DNA from: an uncultured virus (IMG/VR IMGVR_UViG_3300011202_000008)
Lineage: Duplodnaviria; Heunggongvirae; Uroviricota; Caudoviricetes
Reading direction: 5' to 3' (one strand)
DNA: 64,000 nucleotides
Virus record (IMG/VR): IMGVR_UViG_3300011202_000008
Under the pieces are notes generated by a model. That model did no database searches, had not been told where the DNA came from, and worked only from the letters and a program-made list of their open reading frames with translations. Positions 3,881 through 63,953 of the stretch are shown piece after piece. The position numbers were made by a program, and so were the translations under genes. Numbering within the stretch: the stretch's first letter is position 1; every line of letters begins with the position of its first letter.

Positions 3881-4193
3881 CACAATGACGCCTGCAATGT
3901 TATTTAATGTTAGTGGGCTTTTATTTCGTCTTGTGGTGGCAAGACGTTAATGCGCTAAAGTAATCCTTATTAGGATGAACTCAAGTTGAGATTGGAGCTT
4001 ATGATGCTGACAGGACAGTATAGCTCGACACCTTAAGTGGTTTTCCTGCCACCATAAATATTTTGACAATAATACCATTTATTGTTATTATCAAAGCAAC
4101 TACACCTCTCTGGCCTCTTAATAATGCTCATTAAGAGAGGTTCTTTTTAAAGACCGATGCGCCGGGAATTGGACCCGTCCTATTTGGTCTTTA
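3881..4193 (+). ncRNA. Putative structured ncRNA (core domain 3938-4054)
   Basis: GC-elevated, ORF-free stretch after a promoter. Nested stems are closed by GGCAAGA (3938-44)/TCCTGCC (4044-50) followed by ACCA. Confidence 0.55.
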
Positions 4194-20632: not shown

Positions 20633-22159
20633 TTAATTGCATGTATATAATCTTCTATCTGGTTCTCGACAATTACTTCCACCATTATTACATTCATTTC
20701 CTCGATATCTTGATACTTCTATTTGTTTTAAGCGATTAGGATCATTTGGGCAAGAACAACCTCCTGTATCTTTATTTGGAACATAGCATTTTCCTTCAAC
20801 AACAATAAACATTCTATTTATACTTCCTCCCCCTTCTTTCCAAACTCCATTAGAGCAAGATAATATAGAACCATCTGCTGTTCGTCCTTGCAAACCATTA
20901 GGAGAACATCCATTACCTGCATAGGCTACGCCATTGAGTTGAAGAAATTCCCCAACGGTTGTTCTACCACCAGATACAACACCTCCTGCCCCGTAAACCT
21001 GACCAGCAGCATCAATATTCCCGTTGGAATGAACATAGTTAGAGTTAAGGTTTCCTGATGCCCAAACATATGTTGCATTAACCGTTCCATTAGCATCTAT
21101 GTTTCCTGTTGATTTAACGTATCCACCATAGAATCCTGAAGTTGTTTGAACATTTTTACCCGCATAAGCGGTTATGGTGTTAGCATCGGTCATATTCCAG
21201 CCACCACCATACTTCTGGAAGTATATACCACCATCACCTAATGTTCTGAACCAGTTTTGAGTATAAGTTTCACCACGAGAAGTTACAGTTGTCCCTGAAA
21301 CAGTATTATTAGAATTAATGTTTCCATTAACCTGACTATTTCCTGCGACATTTAAATCAGACCCCATTGTAGCCACACCTCCTACATTTAGTGTAGAACC
21401 TACTGTAGTTGCGCCAGTAGAACTCAATGTTCCAGAAGTTGTATTCCCTACTGCTGTTATATCCTGAGCATTATAAATACTCTGACCACCCATATTAAGG
21501 TTTCCGGTCATAGGAAGTGTCCCATCACGACGAAGATAAACAGAATACATGGCTGAATTGTATCCCACTCTATATCCTAACATTCCAGCTTTTGCTATAG
21601 CAGGATATCCAGAAGAAGGATAATTCCAGTTATTACCATAACCATCAAGTTGAGTAGGAGATTTACTCATACCACTATCAATACCTGCTTCTTGCATAGC
21701 TTTACCAAGTAAATCATAACGGATACTCCCTCCTTCAACCCAAGAAGCATTAGTTATTATTAAACCATCAATAATATAGTGAGGACCTGTCCCTGAACGT
21801 TTTAGCTGTATAGAATAATCGGAACCAAAACTATTTCTGGCAACATAGGTTGATGGTAACAACCCTTCATTGATTAATGTTTGATAAGTAATGGAGCATA
21901 GATTTCCAGAACATGTTCTTGGTCCCGGATCGGTACCATTTTCAGCAGCAGCAGATAAACTGGCGAGTTTATCATATCTTATATTGATATATCCATTAAC
22001 CGCTTCTCCCAACTGCTTAATTTGCTGACCTGTAGCTGTTGCTTTTATATCTTCCTGATCTTTTACCATATCTTGAAATTTTATAAATGCTAATGATGTC
22101 CCTATACCAAGCACTAAAATAATTTCAAGTAATGAAAATCCTTTTTTATATTTCATCAT
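20633..22159 (-). CDS. pilV: PilV-like type IVb pilus tip adhesin
   Basis: Class III signal KKGFSLLE, shufflon-PilV-like N-domain, YLRRDGTLPMTGNL, WFRT...YGGGW.M.D and CS.G.W before the variable tip. Confidence 0.8.
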   Translation of the reverse strand: MMKYKKGFSLLEIILVLGIGTSLAFIKFQDMVKDQEDIKATATGQQIKQLGEAVNGYINIRYDKLASLSAAAENGTDPGPRTCSGNLCSITYQTLINEGLLPSTYVARNSFGSDYSIQLKRSGTGPHYIIDGLIITNASWVEGGSIRYDLLGKAMQEAGIDSGMSKSPTQLDGYGNNWNYPSSGYPAIAKAGMLGYRVGYNSAMYSVYLRRDGTLPMTGNLNMGGQSIYNAQDITAVGNTTSGTLSSTGATTVGSTLNVGGVATMGSDLNVAGNSQVNGNINSNNTVSGTTVTSRGETYTQNWFRTLGDGGIYFQKYGGGWNMTDANTITAYAGKNVQTTSGFYGGYVKSTGNIDANGTVNATYVWASGNLNSNYVHSNGNIDAAGQVYGAGGVVSGGRTTVGEFLQLNGVAYAGNGCSPNGLQGRTADGSILSCSNGVWKEGGGSINRMFIVVEGKCYVPNKDTGGCSCPNDPNRLKQIEVSRYRGNECNNGGSNCREPDRRLYTCN

Positions 22160-38191: not shown

Positions 38192-39223
38192 ATGAATAAA
38201 CACCTCCCTATCAGTCTAACTGGTGATCGCCCTACTGGTCCTTTACATATTGGACACCTCGTAGGAAGTCTTTTAAACAGAGTTGCTATACAAGATACTC
38301 ATCAATCTTTTATCATGATTGCTGATGCTCAAGCATATACTGATAACATTGATAATAAAGAAAAGGTTCAAAAAGCTATTTTCCAAGTCGTTGAAGACTA
38401 TCTTTCTGTTGGTATCGATCCAAGTAAAACAACGATTTTTCTTCAATCAGCTATTCCAGAGTTATTTGAACTAACCTTCTATTTTACAAACTTTGTTACT
38501 GTCTCTCGTTTAGAACGAAACCCTACTATTAGACATGAAATATTCCAACGATTTACCTCTGAAAAAACAGAAATGGAATATATCCCTAGAAATATACCCA
38601 CTGGATTTTTAATTTATCCTATTAGTCAGGCCGCAGATATTTTAGCATTTAATGCCGATATAGTTCCAGTGGGTGAAGACCAACTCCCCATGATTGAACA
38701 GGCTAATGAAATAGCTCTTTCTCTTAATAGAAATGTAGGAGAAAATATTCTTAAAACTTGTTCTCCTATGCTTAGTTCATCAGCTAGACTTCCCGGCATA
38801 GATGGCAACAGCAAAATGGGTAAAAGCTTAGGAAATACGTTGAATCTCAATTCTACTAATGATGAGATAATTAAGATAGTTAAAAAAATGTATACTGATC
38901 CTAATCATCTTCGTATATCAGATCCCGGCAAAATAGAAGGAAATACAGTATTTTCATATTTAGATGCTTTTCATCATGATAAAAACTTAATTTCAGACCT
39001 AAAAGAACACTATCAACGAGGCGGTCTTGGAGATAGTTCGGTTAAAAAAATATTATCTGATACTCTTTTAGAATTCTTTGAACCTATACAAAAAAGACGT
39101 TCTTCTATCGAGGAAGAACAACTTAAACAAATCATAAAAGACGGAACTTTTTATGCTAGGAATATCGCATCTGATACCGTTAATAAAGTGAAAAAATCTT
39201 TAGGATTAGGAATTCAGTTTTAA
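38192..39223 (+). CDS. trpS: Tryptophanyl-tRNA synthetase (TrpRS II type)
   Basis: TGDRPTGPLHIGH, YPISQAADIL, VPVGEDQ, KMGKS. Confidence 0.95.
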   Translation: MNKHLPISLTGDRPTGPLHIGHLVGSLLNRVAIQDTHQSFIMIADAQAYTDNIDNKEKVQKAIFQVVEDYLSVGIDPSKTTIFLQSAIPELFELTFYFTNFVTVSRLERNPTIRHEIFQRFTSEKTEMEYIPRNIPTGFLIYPISQAADILAFNADIVPVGEDQLPMIEQANEIALSLNRNVGENILKTCSPMLSSSARLPGIDGNSKMGKSLGNTLNLNSTNDEIIKIVKKMYTDPNHLRISDPGKIEGNTVFSYLDAFHHDKNLISDLKEHYQRGGLGDSSVKKILSDTLLEFFEPIQKRRSSIEEEQLKQIIKDGTFYARNIASDTVNKVKKSLGLGIQF

Positions 39224-39240: not shown

Positions 39241-39269
39241 TTGACATAATAAAAACAATATTTTATACT
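39241..39269 (+). promoter_or_regulatory. Near-consensus sigma70 promoter
   Basis: TTGACA-17 bp-TATACT. Confidence 0.8.
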
Positions 39270-39275
39270 TTCCTA

Positions 39276-39460
39276 TAGTGGCAAGAGCTTGGTCTTTATG
39301 TTATCCGATTATTGCTAAAAGATTCTTGGGCCACCAGACTATCGGAAGTCTGAATAAATGATTGTTATATTGGGAACGATATATGTCTTGGAACCTTAAT
39401 GCTAACAAGAAGCTGCGATCATAATGTGAAAAAAAGGCTGGTTAATCCAGCCCTTTTTTT
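39276..39460 (+). ncRNA. Putative structured ncRNA (~185 nt)
   Basis: Lies between a consensus promoter and the terminator ggctgg-ttaat-ccagcc+T run; several stems; no credible ORF. Confidence 0.65.
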
Positions 39461-39723
39461 ATGCATTTTAAATCTACCATACTAATATACAAAAATAAAT
39501 CTCCTTATTTTGTTATTCTTAAATAGAATATATAATGCTATTTGTTATAATAAAATATCATAAATCGTAACCTTATGATCCTTAAAAATAAAAGAAAATA
39601 TGTATATAAATCATTGTATTTTAAAGAAATATATACCAAATTAAACTTTGATCCTCAACTGAAAATCTGCTATTATTTATTAGTCAAAACCCGATAAAAT
39701 AAATAAGATAAGAGGATAATAAA

Positions 39724-46046: not shown

Positions 46047-46090
46047 AGTTGGATATATTTATCATTATTTGGCACAGCCAAACTATTTTT

Positions 46091-46161
46091 TTGATCACAG
46101 GGGATTGAACCCTATCTTTCACTCCTACTGGAGGACGTGCCACCTATTACACTATAAATCC
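46091..46161 (-). ncRNA. tRNA-like module 2 (non-canonical anticodon arm, no CCA)
   Basis: D arm GTGT-AATAGGTG-GCAC; T arm TAGGG-TTCAATC-CCCTG; anticodon region CTCC-AGTA-GGAG. Confidence 0.6.
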
Positions 46162-46213
46162 AAAAAATATATTATGACTTATTAATATATCCTTTTGCAC
46201 ACAAGGTGCATAC

Positions 46214-46280
46214 ACATTCAAAGCTGGCTTAAAGCTTTTCCTCTTACACTGTAAGTGTGCCACCATTACACCATCAATAT
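46214..46280 (-). ncRNA. tRNA-like module 1 (3-nt anticodon loop, no CCA)
   Basis: ATATTGA/TGAATGT acceptor; GTGT-AATGGTG-GCAC; CTTAC-AGT-GTAAG; AAGCT-TTAAGCC-AGCTT. Confidence 0.6.
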
Positions 46281-46390
46281 GTTATTATTTATACTTCCTC
46301 TATTCACAGAAAAGAGTTTTGAAGTATGAAAAGAATATAACTCATTTTATTCCAAATATCAAATTATTTATAAAAATAACCATTTCTTTA

Positions 46391-48531: not shown

Positions 48532-49089
48532 TTATTTAGTATAGAAAGTAATATTGTTATACTTTTCAGAACAACCTTTAGCTACATTATCTATATTTAG
48601 TTCCATATTTTTATAAACGTTTTTTATAAATGATGTTTTTTGATTGTTATTTTGTAGGTAAGATACATCTGTTTTTATTGCTCCAAAACTTTTTTCTACG
48701 GAGCTTACAAATAATGCACATTGATCTTGAGGTATGTTTGTATATTTTATGCTAAGCATAGAATATTTATTTCCAGTTTTATAATCGGATATTATTACTT
48801 CGCCCTTCCATGAATTTGTTATTTTATACAGTGTATTTGAAACCATTGTATTTGGAACTATTTTTGCTTCTAAAAGAATTTTATTACTAAGACCATTATA
48901 GTTGTTCCCATTATATATACCATAAATACCACTCAATATAGTATTTAGATTTGATACTTCTATATTTACGGTATTTGAATTCTTTAATTTAGGATAAAAA
49001 TAAAATACAGAAACAATAATACTAGCAATAATTCCTATAACTATTAATACTTCTAATAGGGAATATCCTTTTCTATTGATTATTTTCAT
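48532..49089 (-). CDS. Type IV pilin, PilS-like
   Basis: Class III signal RKGYSLLE, hydrophobic helix, NSWKG, Y.NIP...C and a second C-terminal Cys. Confidence 0.75.
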   Translation of the reverse strand: MKIINRKGYSLLEVLIVIGIIASIIVSVFYFYPKLKNSNTVNIEVSNLNTILSGIYGIYNGNNYNGLSNKILLEAKIVPNTMVSNTLYKITNSWKGEVIISDYKTGNKYSMLSIKYTNIPQDQCALFVSSVEKSFGAIKTDVSYLQNNNQKTSFIKNVYKNMELNIDNVAKGCSEKYNNITFYTK

Positions 49090-51229: not shown

Positions 51230-51787
51230 TTATAAAATATAAGTTAAATTGATTGAAACCAAATCATCCATGTAAGGTTTTGAACAATTTTCAGATATTT
51301 TAGCTACATCTATTTGATCTGATGGAGACGATTTTATCGATGCTCCAGAAACTTTTATAATTGCGGTCATTGGAAAAACAGCAGTAATGAATTTTGTACA
51401 GGCATTTTCTGACACCTCATAAATTAGTGTATACCCCGCACTGTAAGTATATCCAGATTCTGGCGTAGAATATAGACTATATCTTACATTTCTACCCCAA
51501 GCATTTCTGTATTCTGATGTGGATTCGGAAAATATCATGTTATCAGGTAAAGCCTTAGCTTTAACTAAAACATTTAAAGACCATTTTGAATAATCGGATG
51601 ATGAACTAAATAACTCTTTACTAGCAGCGTAGATAGCCGAAAGGTTCTTGGTTTCTTGGTTTACTTCATTTGATGCTTTAACTCCGGGATAAACTAAAAA
51701 CGCAGCAACAATAAATGCTGATATTATTGCTAGTGATAATAATAATTCAAGAAGAGAAAAGCCTTTTTTATTCCTTATTATTTTCAT
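51230..51787 (-). CDS. Type IV pilin, PilS-like
   Basis: KKGFSLLE signal, NAWG, two Cys. Confidence 0.75.
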   Translation of the reverse strand: MKIIRNKKGFSLLELLLSLAIISAFIVAAFLVYPGVKASNEVNQETKNLSAIYAASKELFSSSSDYSKWSLNVLVKAKALPDNMIFSESTSEYRNAWGRNVRYSLYSTPESGYTYSAGYTLIYEVSENACTKFITAVFPMTAIIKVSGASIKSSPSDQIDVAKISENCSKPYMDDLVSINLTYIL

Positions 51788-62426: not shown

Positions 62427-63953
62427 ATGTATTTAAATTATAAAAAAGGTTTTAGTCTATTAGAATTGATTTTAGTATTAGGTGTAGGGATCGCATTTGC
62501 TTTTATGAGATTTCAGGAAATGTTACAGCAACAAGACGAAATAAGAGCAAGCGTATCTGGAAAACAAATAAAACAAATAGGTGATGCTACAAATGGTTAT
62601 ATTTCTTTAAGATATGATAAAATTTCATCATTATCTAATGCAGCAGGAAACGGTACCGATCCGGGGCCAAGAAACTGTTCTGGAAATATCTGTACTATAA
62701 CATATCAAACTTTGGTTAATGAAGGTCTTCTTCCTTCAACATATGTTGCTAAGAATGGTTTTGGATCTGGATATAATATTCAAATTAGCCGTTCAGGTAT
62801 CAGTCCTAACTATATCATAGATGGTGTAGTATTAACCAATGCTGCTTGGGTTGAAGGCGGTAAAGTTCGGTATGATCTGTTGGGTAAAGCTATGCAGTCA
62901 GCAGGGATTGACAGTGGGGTAAGTAAAAATACAACCACTGTAAATGGGTATGGTGGTGGATGGAGTTCGTCTTCTTCGACCTATTCTTTAATAAATAAAA
63001 CTGGATTATTAGCTTATCGTACAGGATATAACTCTTTTGCTTATTCTGCTTATTTAAGACGTGATGGCACACTCCCTATGACCGGAAATCTTGATATGGG
63101 GGCCAATGATATCAATAATGCTAAAAATATTACAGCTTCTGGTAACGCATCCTTTGGGGGAACTGGAAACTTTATAGGAAATTTAATAACAATGGGGAGC
63201 GTTTTAGCAGCAAAAGAGCTAATAGCTCATAATGGTTATGGTGATGCTATTTATTTTGGTGGAGACACGGCAAACAATGATTATGAAATACGTTTAGGAG
63301 CACCTAAACAACTTACTATATATTCACCATCAGCAGGAAATTATACTACCGTATTACAAGTTAATAGAAACGTCAAAATAGATCAAAGACTTGGATTAAT
63401 GGGATACGATCCCAATGATATACCTATTGGATGGAATGGAGGCTTACGAACAGTTGATGTTTATGCTGAAGGAGCTATTGGAATAAAAAGAGCCAATGGT
63501 TCAGGAAATAGTGATTTAGCTTTTTCTGCTAACAATGATGGTAATGTTTTCTCATCTGGTAATATTACTACAAATCAAAGAGTTATAGCTAATGATATTC
63601 AAATTAAAAAAATATACTCTGTCGGCTCACCATGCACTCCAAATGGTCTTATTGGCATTAGTAGTGATGGTAACTCATTATCCTGTATTAACGGTTTATG
63701 GCAGAAAATATCTTTTAATTATTCTCAATATGAACTTACATACACTGCGCCTACAGAAGGAACTCAAGATATTATTCAAACTAAAGTTATGGGCAAACAT
63801 TTAGTTTGTTTTTTAACTGGAGATCAACATAATCCGGGGCTTCAAAAACACTCTTTAGTCTTTAGAAATGGCGATGAGTGGATTTTAGAACAGAGAATGA
63901 TAAAATGGCCTGCCCAAATCATAACATGGGCAAAAGCCACCTGCATTGACTAA
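62427..63953 (+). CDS. pilV: PilV-like type IVb pilus tip adhesin, second copy
   Basis: KKGFSLLE. The N-terminal ~240 aa closely match 20633-22159 (GTDPGPR.CSGN.C.ITYQTL.NEGLLPSTYVA); the distal part differs. Confidence 0.8.
   Translation: MYLNYKKGFSLLELILVLGVGIAFAFMRFQEMLQQQDEIRASVSGKQIKQIGDATNGYISLRYDKISSLSNAAGNGTDPGPRNCSGNICTITYQTLVNEGLLPSTYVAKNGFGSGYNIQISRSGISPNYIIDGVVLTNAAWVEGGKVRYDLLGKAMQSAGIDSGVSKNTTTVNGYGGGWSSSSSTYSLINKTGLLAYRTGYNSFAYSAYLRRDGTLPMTGNLDMGANDINNAKNITASGNASFGGTGNFIGNLITMGSVLAAKELIAHNGYGDAIYFGGDTANNDYEIRLGAPKQLTIYSPSAGNYTTVLQVNRNVKIDQRLGLMGYDPNDIPIGWNGGLRTVDVYAEGAIGIKRANGSGNSDLAFSANNDGNVFSSGNITTNQRVIANDIQIKKIYSVGSPCTPNGLIGISSDGNSLSCINGLWQKISFNYSQYELTYTAPTEGTQDIIQTKVMGKHLVCFLTGDQHNPGLQKHSLVFRNGDEWILEQRMIKWPAQIITWAKATCID

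What the first reader, a model, noticed from the sequence alone, without database searches (positions are those of the whole stretch)
39241..39460. Stand-alone structured ncRNA downstream of trpS, related at its ends to the 3938 RNA
Seen: TTGACA-17-TATACT, then a 57-nt hairpin GGCAAGAG...TTCTTGGGCC-ACCA (39280-39336) and a hairpin cagact-atcgga-agtctg. A three-way junction follows, closed by atgattg/cgatcat, containing tatattg-GGAA-cgatata (GNRA loop) and tcttg..caaga, and then a strong terminator. Only 6- and 13-codon ORFs without a clear RBS are present. Inference: an abundant RNA with an acceptor-minihelix-like domain; several GGA loops also allow a CsrA-sponge role.
Basis: partly seen in the sequence, partly recalled or inferred. 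Interest (0 to 1): 0.7.

Follow-up and report, generated by a model that had tools for sequence, protein, structure and literature searches.

The report
Conserved structured small RNA in huge phage
Just downstream of a phage-borne tryptophanyl-tRNA synthetase gene lies a separate gene for a roughly 185-base, tightly folded non-coding RNA that a distant relative has kept fold-for-fold, matches no catalogued RNA family, and has no known function.

Summary
A near-consensus promoter (39241-39269), a 57-nt hairpin, a 6-bp hairpin, a three-way junction with a GNRA hairpin, and an intrinsic terminator are all present.

The window looks like the accessory region of a huge AT-rich phage. One relative could be reached as DNA (L082, TrpS 74% identical). 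It carries the same RNA at the same place.
- All 41 base pairs are kept: 6 by double compensatory changes, 3 by wobble changes, none broken.
- Random placement of the same substitutions broke a mean of 11 pairs, and never fewer than 2 in 20,000 trials.
- The RNA is 79.5% identical, against 70% for trpS DNA and about 56% for the spacers.

It is a real, selected, structured RNA with no Rfam family.

- The "ACCA" is base-paired and covaries away in L082.
- GGA is not enriched (3 observed, about 3 expected). The weak RsmZ score comes mostly from the terminator.
- The 3938 RNA is not homologous.

The function is not known. My best guess is a trans-acting folded RNA that binds a conserved partner. 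An invariant CCGAU/AUCGG loop pair hints at kissing-loop contacts.

The parts
39241..39269 (+). Sigma-70-type promoter, TTGACA-17-TATACT. The start site is inferred at A39275-G39278.
   Evidence: 11/12 consensus matches. L082 keeps it as TTGACT-17-TATATT at the same distance from hairpin H1.
39278..39334 (+). Hairpin H1: a long imperfect hairpin closed by GUGGC/GCCAC. It has a conserved internal loop (AAG / NGG) and a 12-nt apical loop that carries the invariant CCGAUUAUUG (39305-39314).
   Evidence: Minimum-energy fold. 16 pairs are kept in both homologues, 4 of them by changes on both sides (helices 1-3).
39335..39352 (+). Hairpin H2: CAGACU-AUCGGA-AGUCUG. It abuts H1 with no linker. The loop AUCGG (39341-45) is complementary to CCGAU in the H1 loop.
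   Evidence: 6 invariant pairs. for the loop-loop complementarity; probability unpaired at least 0.92 for both loops in both homologues.
39358..39422 (+). Three-way junction. P1 is AUGAUUG/CGAUCAU. P2 is UAUAUUG-GGAA-CGAUAUA (39366-83), with a GNRA loop that reads GAAA in L082. P3 is UCUUG-GAACCUUAAUGCUAA-CAAGA (39386-39410), with conserved GGAACC and UGCUAAC. The junction strand AGCUG is 39411-15.
   Evidence: P3 has 2 pairs changed on both sides. P1 and P2 each have one wobble-compatible change. No pair is broken.
39423..39460 (+). AAUGUG and A7, then the intrinsic terminator GGCUGG-UUAAU-CCAGCC-C-U7. The flanking A and U tracts give it a bidirectional look.
   Evidence: Conserved in L082.
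38192..39223 (+). trpS (tryptophan--tRNA ligase). No terminator-like site lies on the + strand between its stop codon and the RNA, so trpS transcripts probably also end at 39460.
   Evidence: TIGR00233, 238 bits against a cutoff of 176.75. Terminator scan.
39461..39490 (.). Conserved block just past the terminator (AUGCAUUU ... CUACCAUACUA). Its function is unexplained.
   Evidence: Alignment A2. The rest of the spacer is about 56% identical.

Best explanation
This is a separate gene for a highly structured non-coding RNA of about 185 nt, carried by a huge AT-rich phage.

How it is made (inferred). The host sigma-70 RNA polymerase transcribes it from its own near-consensus promoter. It probably also forms the 3' end of trpS mRNA. 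It ends at an intrinsic terminator. The 5' hairpin begins 1-3 nt after the inferred start site, and with the terminator hairpin at the other end it should make the RNA stable.

What is shown. The fold is H1, H2, then a three-way junction with a GNRA arm and an arm bearing a 15-nt loop. This fold is under strong purifying selection.

Most likely mechanism (inferred). It works in trans as a folded RNA. Its invariant loops and junction strands contact a slowly evolving partner. That partner could be a host RNA-metabolism or translation component, or the co-transcribed phage TrpRS. The RNA would then be a scaffold or decoy of a ribonucleoprotein, not a simple antisense RNA. The CCGAU/AUCGG loop pair would lock the fold or join molecules.

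Confidence by part. About 0.9 that it is a real, independently transcribed, selected structured RNA. About 0.4 for the trans-acting partner-binding mechanism. The confidence number given for this explanation (0.4) is that of the mechanism.
For: - Fold: z -3.35, strand-specific.
- Homologue: L082 holds the RNA in the same gene order, and TrpS there is 74% identical.
- Pairing: 41 of 41 pairs are kept in both sequences. 6 pairs changed on both sides, 3 changed on one side in a wobble-compatible way, and 0 are broken. Slid controls give 35-47% of cells paired and 0-1 double changes.
- Substitution test: the 32 substitutions placed at random break a mean of 11.1 pairs. 0 of 20,000 trials break none.
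- Conservation: the RNA body is 79.5% identical. trpS DNA is 70% (third codon positions 45%), spacers 56%, neighbouring genes 51-61%. The adjacent small protein is 30% identical, 24/80 residues.
- Transcription unit: promoter and terminator are conserved. The next gene has its own conserved promoter and ribosome-binding site.
- Loops: most loop and junction nucleotides are invariant, and the tetraloop keeps its GNRA class (GGAA to GAAA). This pattern is typical of RNAs with tertiary structure or protein partners.
- Accessibility: the loops are predicted unpaired, P at least 0.92 for CCGAU and AUCGG.
Against: - Only two sequences are available, so covariation rests on a single comparison. The column-shuffle control reaches the observed values in 9 of 500 shuffles.
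- There are no expression data.
- No partner is identified. No CsrA, Hfq or ProQ family was found among the 76 large ORFs, the 30 small ORFs or the neighbouring ORFs scanned.
- The loop-loop complementarity is invariant, so it shows no covariation. A stretch of 5 bp or more arises in 47 of 1000 column shuffles.
- Conserved loops would fit a kissing-loop antisense RNA equally well.
Confidence: 0.4

Rival explanations
1. Base-pairing regulator. The RNA acts as a kissing-loop or Hfq-type antisense sRNA. Its conserved loops (CCGAUUAUUG in H1; UGCUAAC in P3, which contains a YUNR-like CUAA) nucleate pairing with host or phage mRNAs.
For: - It has the architecture of a stand-alone sRNA gene: promoter, then a Rho-independent terminator with U7 preceded by an A-rich stretch.
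- The loops are invariant and predicted accessible.
Against: - Complements of the loops occur in the window at chance level: 5 matches against 3.56 expected, and 2 against 0.48 expected where one of the two is the RNA itself.
- Too many separate loops and junctions are invariant for a single-seed sRNA. A class-conserved GNRA loop points to tertiary structure instead.
- The host genome is unknown, so host targets could not be searched.
Confidence: 0.2
2. Cis-acting element. Three forms were considered: a structured 3' end that stabilises trpS mRNA; a put-like nascent RNA that modifies RNA polymerase to read through 39436 into the two downstream genes; or a ligand-sensing riboswitch.
For: - No terminator separates trpS from the RNA, so it also forms the trpS 3' UTR.
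- The structure starts at about +1 of a strong promoter with no ORF behind it. This resembles HK022 put (recalled, not tested).
Against: - Its own conserved near-consensus promoter argues for independent expression.
- The downstream gene lies 263 nt away and has its own conserved promoter.
- I saw no alternative pairing between the junction and the terminator on reading the sequence.
- No riboswitch, T-box or leader family scores near threshold.
Confidence: 0.12
3. tRNA-related mimic. An acceptor-minihelix-like domain would be recognised by TrpRS, the CCA-adding enzyme, RNase P or a tRNA-targeting defence nuclease.
For: - It sits next to trpS, is probably co-transcribed with it, and this placement is conserved.
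- TrpRS and the RNA are the two most conserved features of the locus.
- CCAGACU is invariant.
- The window holds RNA-repair and tRNA-modification genes: two RNA ligases, an AAA_33 kinase-like protein, and a PP-loop protein of the TilS family.
Against: - 'ACCA' is base-paired and covaries to GCUGC-CA in L082.
- On reading the sequence, there is no T-arm, no 7-nt anticodon loop and no free 3' NCCA.
- ARAGORN finds 0 genes. Rfam finds no tRNA, tmRNA, Y-RNA or T-box match.
- There is no similarity to T4 rnaC/rnaD.
Confidence: 0.08
4. CsrA/RsmA sponge. GGA-bearing loops would titrate the host's CsrA.
For: - All three GGA lie at or in hairpin loops and are kept in L082.
- H2 aligns to the first stem-loop of RsmZ.
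- PrrB/RsmZ has the lowest E-value of any Rfam family on the plus strand, 0.047.
Against: - GGA is not enriched: 3 observed against 3.3 and 2.6 in shuffles, with P(at least 3) of 0.74 and 0.52. There are 0 A-N-GGA motifs.
- The score is 18.6 bits against a gathering score of 44. The terminator alone gives 14.9-17.6 bits on the wrong strand.
- One GGA is simply part of a GNRA tetraloop, and another has its first G inside a stem.
- Known sponges carry many more sites (recalled).
Confidence: 0.06
5. mRNA for a micro-peptide: the 13-codon ATG frame, or one of the 20-28-codon GTG/TTG/ATG frames.
For: Short frames exist. Two are partly similar in L082.
Against: - No Shine-Dalgarno sequence precedes the 13-codon frame.
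- In L082 that frame changes L to S and G to E, and its stop codon moves.
- One frame runs through the terminator, so the terminated RNA would carry no stop codon for it.
- Substitutions follow base pairing, not codon position.
Confidence: 0.02

Closest known systems
Stand-alone phage small stable RNAs, for example T4 rnaC/rnaD (species 1 and 2 RNAs)
   Same: Small, stable-looking, non-coding RNAs of unknown function. They are encoded in the accessory region of a large lytic phage, close to translation-related genes.
   Different: T4 rnaC has a tRNA-like T-arm and lies inside the tRNA cluster. The covariance model of the present RNA finds nothing at rnaC or rnaD. This RNA has its own promoter and terminator and shows no tRNA features.
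PrrB/RsmZ (RF00166) and other CsrA-titrating sRNAs
   Same: A promoter-to-terminator sRNA gene with GGA in hairpin loops. H2 resembles one RsmZ stem-loop.
   Different: The score is far below the family threshold. GGA is not enriched and there is no A-N-GGA motif.
phi29-type packaging RNA (pRNA)
   Same: A phage RNA built round a three-way junction, with two loops complementary to each other. In pRNA such loops join molecules into a ring (recalled).
   Different: There is no Rfam match. Here the complementary loops sit on two hairpins outside the junction. The phage is of a different type and size. Nothing links this RNA to packaging. The resemblance is an analogy only.
Candidate structured RNAs catalogued from IMG/VR (PMC10690425)
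   Same: Phage intergenic RNAs defined by conserved, covarying structure, with no assigned function.
   Different: In the passages I searched, that paper mentions no synthetase-linked, three-way-junction or kissing-loop motif (main-text term search only, supplements not read). Four sequence patterns from this RNA gave no true homologue in IMG/VR.

Membership tests
PrrB/RsmZ-CsrB type CsrA sponge | Scores at or above the Rfam gathering threshold for RF00166 | tested here: not met
   18.6 bits (window) and 18.7 bits (L082) against a threshold of 44. The alignment covers H2 and the terminator only.
PrrB/RsmZ-CsrB type CsrA sponge | Many GGA / A-N-GGA motifs, enriched over composition | tested here: not met
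   3 GGA in each homologue against shuffle means of 3.3 and 2.6. 0 A-N-GGA motifs.
PrrB/RsmZ-CsrB type CsrA sponge | Binds CsrA/RsmA | not testable with these tools
   This needs a gel shift. The host is unknown. No CsrA family was found in the window.
tRNA / acceptor minihelix / tmRNA | Detected by ARAGORN or by the Rfam tRNA or tmRNA models | tested here: not met
   0 genes in the window. No tRNA-clan match even at E up to 10.
tRNA / acceptor minihelix / tmRNA | Acceptor helix followed by a single-stranded NCCA 3' end | tested here: not met
   The AC of 'ACCA' pairs with the 5' GU and covaries in L082. The CA begins the H2 stem.
T-box leader | Rfam T-box match and a position upstream of the regulated aaRS gene | tested here: not met
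   No match. The element lies downstream of trpS.
T4 rnaC/rnaD | Similarity in sequence and structure | tested here: not met
   Model R1 run with filters off over the T4 region: best hit 5.3 bits, and none at rnaC or rnaD on their strand.
phi29 pRNA | Rfam pRNA match | tested here: not met
   No match in the window-wide scans or the local scan.
phi29 pRNA | Intermolecular loop-loop pairing that forms oligomers | not testable with these tools
   Only the complementarity CCGAU/AUCGG is seen.
Same family as the window's '3938 RNA' | Shared fold or sequence beyond the ends | tested here: not met
   R1 finds no plus-strand hit at 3925-4065. The 3938 element folds as a multi-branch structure. The shared 9-mer is not kept in L082.

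The most novel reading that the evidence does not exclude
The RNA self-assembles. H1 and H2 abut with no linker, so if they stack coaxially their loops point in opposite directions. The invariant, accessible CCGAU (H1 loop) and AUCGG (H2 loop) could then pair only between molecules. That would give antiparallel closed dimers or head-to-tail chains or rings, which makes this a small natural RNA-only assembly in a huge phage, analogous to pRNA rings or the recently described multimeric phage-associated RNAs. The three-way-junction domain would be displayed to bind a partner such as the co-transcribed TrpRS.
Probability: 0.1. Interest if true: 0.8.

Novelty: new variant of a known kind. Interest (0 to 1): 0.5.

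Why it matters
Huge phages carry many translation-related genes, but their non-coding RNAs are almost unexplored. This RNA is more conserved at the nucleotide level than any neighbouring gene. It has a complex fold and matches no Rfam family. It travels with a phage-encoded TrpRS.

If it binds a host or phage factor, or self-assembles, it would add a new RNA player to phage takeover of host translation or RNA metabolism. It is short enough for direct structural and biochemical study.

As it stands, it is a well-supported new candidate RNA class with unknown function, among many thousands of phage candidates.

Tried and rejected
**Searching for more homologues**
- GTDB genomes by TrpS: the best 80 of 212 relatives were kept, none above 56% identity. 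Model R1 found nothing in those 80 loci plus L081.
Among the 80 loci kept, only L082 is close. R1 found L082 and a weak hit in L124 (19.6 bits, E 0.033), which I judged to be chance.
- The closer TrpS relatives (95, 87, 85, 85 and 71% identical) are known only as proteins.
- IMG/VR by TrpS: L173 (75% identical) ends inside trpS, so the RNA lies off the contig.
I screened them with nhmmer over all 399 loci held, and ran R1 on the 15 best. No homologue appeared.
- L214 and L229 are an identical intergenic region in two complete 144- and 179-kb phages that lack trpS. They scored 16.3 bits, but the fold z-score is -0.97, the score is not significant genome-wide, and the alignment beyond the forced pattern is poor. 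Rejected.
- GenBank phages and plasmids by blastn: only matches of 29-41 nt to the AT-rich promoter stretch.

**Other checks that led nowhere**
- Earlier findings of this scan: nothing on record.
- G001 lacks the genes that flank the 3938 element, so that RNA could not be compared.
- Literature: two searches and one paper term search produced no description of this RNA.

**Readings rejected**
- CsrA sponge, acceptor minihelix, T-box, micro-peptide mRNA and homology to the 3938 RNA. Reasons are given under the rivals and the membership rows.
- The DGR template and retron readings were set aside because the Pfam scan of the window's ORFs shows no reverse transcriptase and no second copy of the RNA was found.
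- The guide-RNA reading was set aside because no TnpB or IscB family was found.

Full report
**1. The observation**

- The consensus scan gives TTGACA-17-TATACT with 11 of 12 matches. It also finds a terminator, GGCTGG-TTAAT-CCAGCC followed by a T run.
- In the 1.2-kb region scanned, 2 terminator-like sites were found against 0.4 expected.
- Across 60 kb, only 8 promoter-like sites reach 11/12, while terminator-like sites run at about four times expectation (19-20 found against 4.9 expected per 20 kb).
It gives -53.9 kcal/mol, z -3.35, and 0 of 200 shuffles fold as well.
- The reverse strand gives z -1.6.

**2. What replicon this is**

- The window has 28.7% G+C, and no genome is held for it.
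- Of 76 ORFs of at least 90 codons, most have no Pfam family. Those that do include:
  - TrpRS;
  - a PP-loop protein of the TilS family;
  - two RNA ligases (PF09414, and T4 Rnl1-type PF09511);
  - an AAA_33 kinase-like protein;
  - three NUDIX proteins and two Dam-type methylases;
  - Ogt, NAD kinase and MYG1;
  - PilS-type pilins and two proteins with a Shufflon_N domain.
- PHROGs adds tail-collar-fibre hits and several strong matches to phage-only families.
- TrpS relatives at 95-71% identity exist only in metagenomes, on contigs up to 443 kb.
- An IMG/VR fragment with 75% identical TrpS is rated 9% complete at 41.6 kb. That implies a genome of several hundred kb.
- I read the window as the accessory region of a huge phage that uses sigma-70-type promoters and intrinsic terminators. 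The host is unknown. The best non-phage TrpS and methylase relatives point loosely to Proteobacteria.

**3. A homologue, and what it shows**

One relative could be read as DNA. L082 is part of a 243-kb metagenome contig, with TrpS 74% identical. It keeps the gene order: a 125-aa ORF on the minus strand, trpS, the RNA, a small ORF, and an ORF of about 255 aa.

- The RNA region aligns end to end.
- RNAalifold gives the same architecture.
- On the 41 pairs of the body, 100% of cells are paired in both sequences. 6 pairs changed on both sides: two in the H1 closing helix, two deeper in H1, two in P3. 3 pairs changed on one side to a wobble-compatible pair. None is broken.
- Sliding the 3' partners by 1-3 columns gives 35-47% paired and 0-1 double changes.
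- With only two rows, the column-shuffle control reaches the observed values in 9 of 500 shuffles.
- A placement test is sharper. The 32 substitutions placed at random break a mean of 11.1 pairs, never fewer than 2 in 20,000 trials. The observed number broken is 0.

Nucleotide identity across the locus:

| Feature | Identity |
|---|---|
| RNA body | 79.5% |
| trpS DNA | 70.0% (third codon positions 45%) |
| Spacer upstream of trpS | 55.8% |
| Spacer downstream of the RNA | 56.3% |
| Neighbouring ORFs | 51-61% |

- The small downstream protein is 30% identical.
- The promoter is kept as TTGACT-17-TATATT, and the terminator is kept.
- The downstream gene has its own conserved promoter (TTGAT(C/T)-17-TATTAT) and ribosome-binding site. 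The rest of that spacer has diverged.

The RNA is therefore an independent, strongly selected, structured transcript. No terminator-like site separates it from trpS on the + strand. trpS mRNA probably ends in it as well.

**4. It is not coding**

- The 13-codon ATG frame has no Shine-Dalgarno sequence. In L082 it changes L to S and G to E, and its stop codon moves.
- The GTG/TTG/ATG frames of 20-35 codons are not kept. One runs through the terminator.
- Substitutions follow base pairing.

**5.

(a) Acceptor minihelix.
- The H1 closing helix is GUGGC/GCCAC. In L082 it is GCAGC/GCUGC.
- So A and C of 'ACCA' are paired and covary, and GCCACCA is not conserved.
- The CA that follows opens the H2 stem.
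- ARAGORN finds no tRNA or tmRNA in 64 kb. Rfam finds none either.

(b) CsrA sponge.
- Each homologue has 3 GGA, against 3.3 and 2.6 in dinucleotide shuffles, and no A-N-GGA.
- One GGA is part of a tetraloop that changes GGAA to GAAA, staying GNRA. Another has its first G inside the P3 stem.
- The PrrB/RsmZ score is 18.6-18.7 bits against a gathering score of 44. It aligns only H2 and the terminator. The terminator alone scores 14.9-17.6 bits on the opposite strand.
- No CsrA, Hfq or ProQ family is encoded in the window.

(c) Relation to the 3938 RNA.
- A covariance model of the RNA body (R1), run with filters off, finds only the RNA itself in the window: 186 bits, with the next best at 13.3 bits.
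- The 3938 element folds as a different, multi-branched structure.
- The shared 9-mer occurs exactly twice in the window, but it is not kept in L082.

**6. Comparison with known families**

- Rfam 15 has no family at gathering score anywhere in the window. Nothing convincing appears at relaxed thresholds.
- R1 finds nothing at T4 rnaC or rnaD, which have a tRNA-like T-arm.
- It finds nothing in 161 trpS loci other than L082 and a weak hit in L124 (19.6 bits) that I judged to be chance.
- It finds nothing in the three IMG/VR records reached.
- blastn against GenBank phages and plasmids gives only matches of 29-41 nt to the AT-rich promoter stretch.
- Four pattern scans of IMG/VR gave no true homologue.
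- A partial look-alike in two complete phages (L214/L229) was rejected.
- Two literature searches and a term search of the IMG/VR structured-RNA catalogue paper turned up no description. I saw the search listings, and for PMC10690425 the passages only. Its supplements were not read and could list such a motif.

**7. How it may work**

What is shown is a promoter-to-terminator unit with a conserved complex fold. Most loop and junction nucleotides are invariant:
- CCGAUUAUUG in the H1 loop;
- AUCGG in the H2 loop;
- GGAACC and UGCUAAC in the P3 loop;
- AAGCU in the junction;
- the GNRA class of the P2 loop.

Invariance spread over many unpaired segments, together with a class-conserved tetraloop, is the pattern of RNAs that fold in three dimensions or are read by a macromolecule. 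It is not the pattern of a one-seed antisense RNA.

The RNA evolves more slowly than the phage proteins around it. Its partner is therefore probably slow-evolving too: a host component, or the co-transcribed TrpRS, which is the other well-conserved feature of the locus.

Among unpaired columns, the only complementarity of 5 bp or more kept in both sequences is CCGAU with AUCGG.
- A stretch of that length arises in 47 of 1000 column shuffles, so the evidence is suggestive only.
- Both loops are predicted unpaired, P at least 0.92. The loop duplex is worth -6 to -8 kcal/mol.
- H1 and H2 abut without a linker, so the contact would need either a sharp bend in H1 or pairing between molecules.

I found no targets for the loops within the window above chance.

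My ranking:

| Reading | Probability |
|---|---|
| Trans-acting folded RNA that binds a conserved partner | about 0.4 |
| Kissing-loop or Hfq-type antisense regulator | 0.2 |
| Cis-acting (3' UTR, antitermination, riboswitch) | 0.12 |
| tRNA-related mimic | 0.08 |
| CsrA sponge | 0.06 |
| Peptide mRNA | 0.02 |

The remainder is left open.

**8. Verdict**

The feature is real and well supported as a new candidate class of structured phage RNA. The function remains open. Only two sequences and no expression data limit the case.

Noticed in passing
window 3885-4150 (+): The '3938 RNA' region contains an 18-codon ORF (3907-3963, MLVGFYFVLWWQDVNALK) with tandem UGG-UGG Trp codons. These codons lie exactly on the 5' strand of the long closing helix GUGGUGGCA.../...UGCCACCA. 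The element has a multi-branch fold (z -3.16). It is followed by an 11/12 promoter at 4063-4091 and a hairpin plus T-run at 4105-4148, which gives a weak abiF-RNA match (23.1 bits against 37). This could be a trp-leader-like attenuator in a phage that carries TrpRS. No homologue could be found to test it.
   Followed up: partly
window 46085-46290 (-): Downstream of the PP-loop (TilS-family) gene lie two tRNA-like pieces that share GUGUAAU(A)GGUGGCAC. One has a canonical-looking T-arm (UAGGG-UUCAAUC-CCCUG) but a 4-nt loop where the anticodon loop should be. ARAGORN and Rfam call neither. They may be degenerate tRNAs or T4-rnaC-like RNAs.
   Followed up: partly
window-wide: The heptamer GCCACCA (TGGTGGC on the other strand) occurs 9 times against 1.18 expected, and 0 of 100 shuffles reach that count. 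Four of the nine sites lie in the putative RNA loci at 3934, 4048, 39330 and 46259.
   Followed up: no
window 39461-39490; L082 3788-3815: A block just past the terminator (AUGCAUUU ... CUACCAUACUA) is nearly invariant between the two phages, while the rest of the spacer has diverged. It could be a protein-binding site or a minus-strand promoter. Unexplained.
   Followed up: no
window 20633-22159 (-), 62427-63953 (+), 48532-49089 (-), 51230-51787 (-): Two proteins hit the PHROGs tail-collar-fibre family (phrog_523) and also carry a Pfam Shufflon_N domain. Two PilS/bundlin-type pilin-like genes are also present. This is an unusual combination for a phage, and may relate to variable receptor binding.
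   Followed up: no
L214 193-525 = L229 (IMG/VR; complete 144-kb and 179-kb phages): The two phages share an identical intergenic stretch of about 330 nt that ends in a terminator. It shares GGCAAG-GCAUG, a paired CCGAU/AUCGG, a UAUAU hairpin and CUGGAACC-N4-UGCUAAC with the RNA. Overall it neither aligns nor folds significantly. It may be a chance resemblance or a very distant relative.
   Followed up: partly
window 1-60000: Intrinsic-terminator-like hairpins run at about four times expectation (19-20 found against 4.9 expected per 20 kb). Many are bidirectional, with A-tract and T-tract flanks. Almost every gene or gene pair appears to be its own transcription unit.
   Followed up: no
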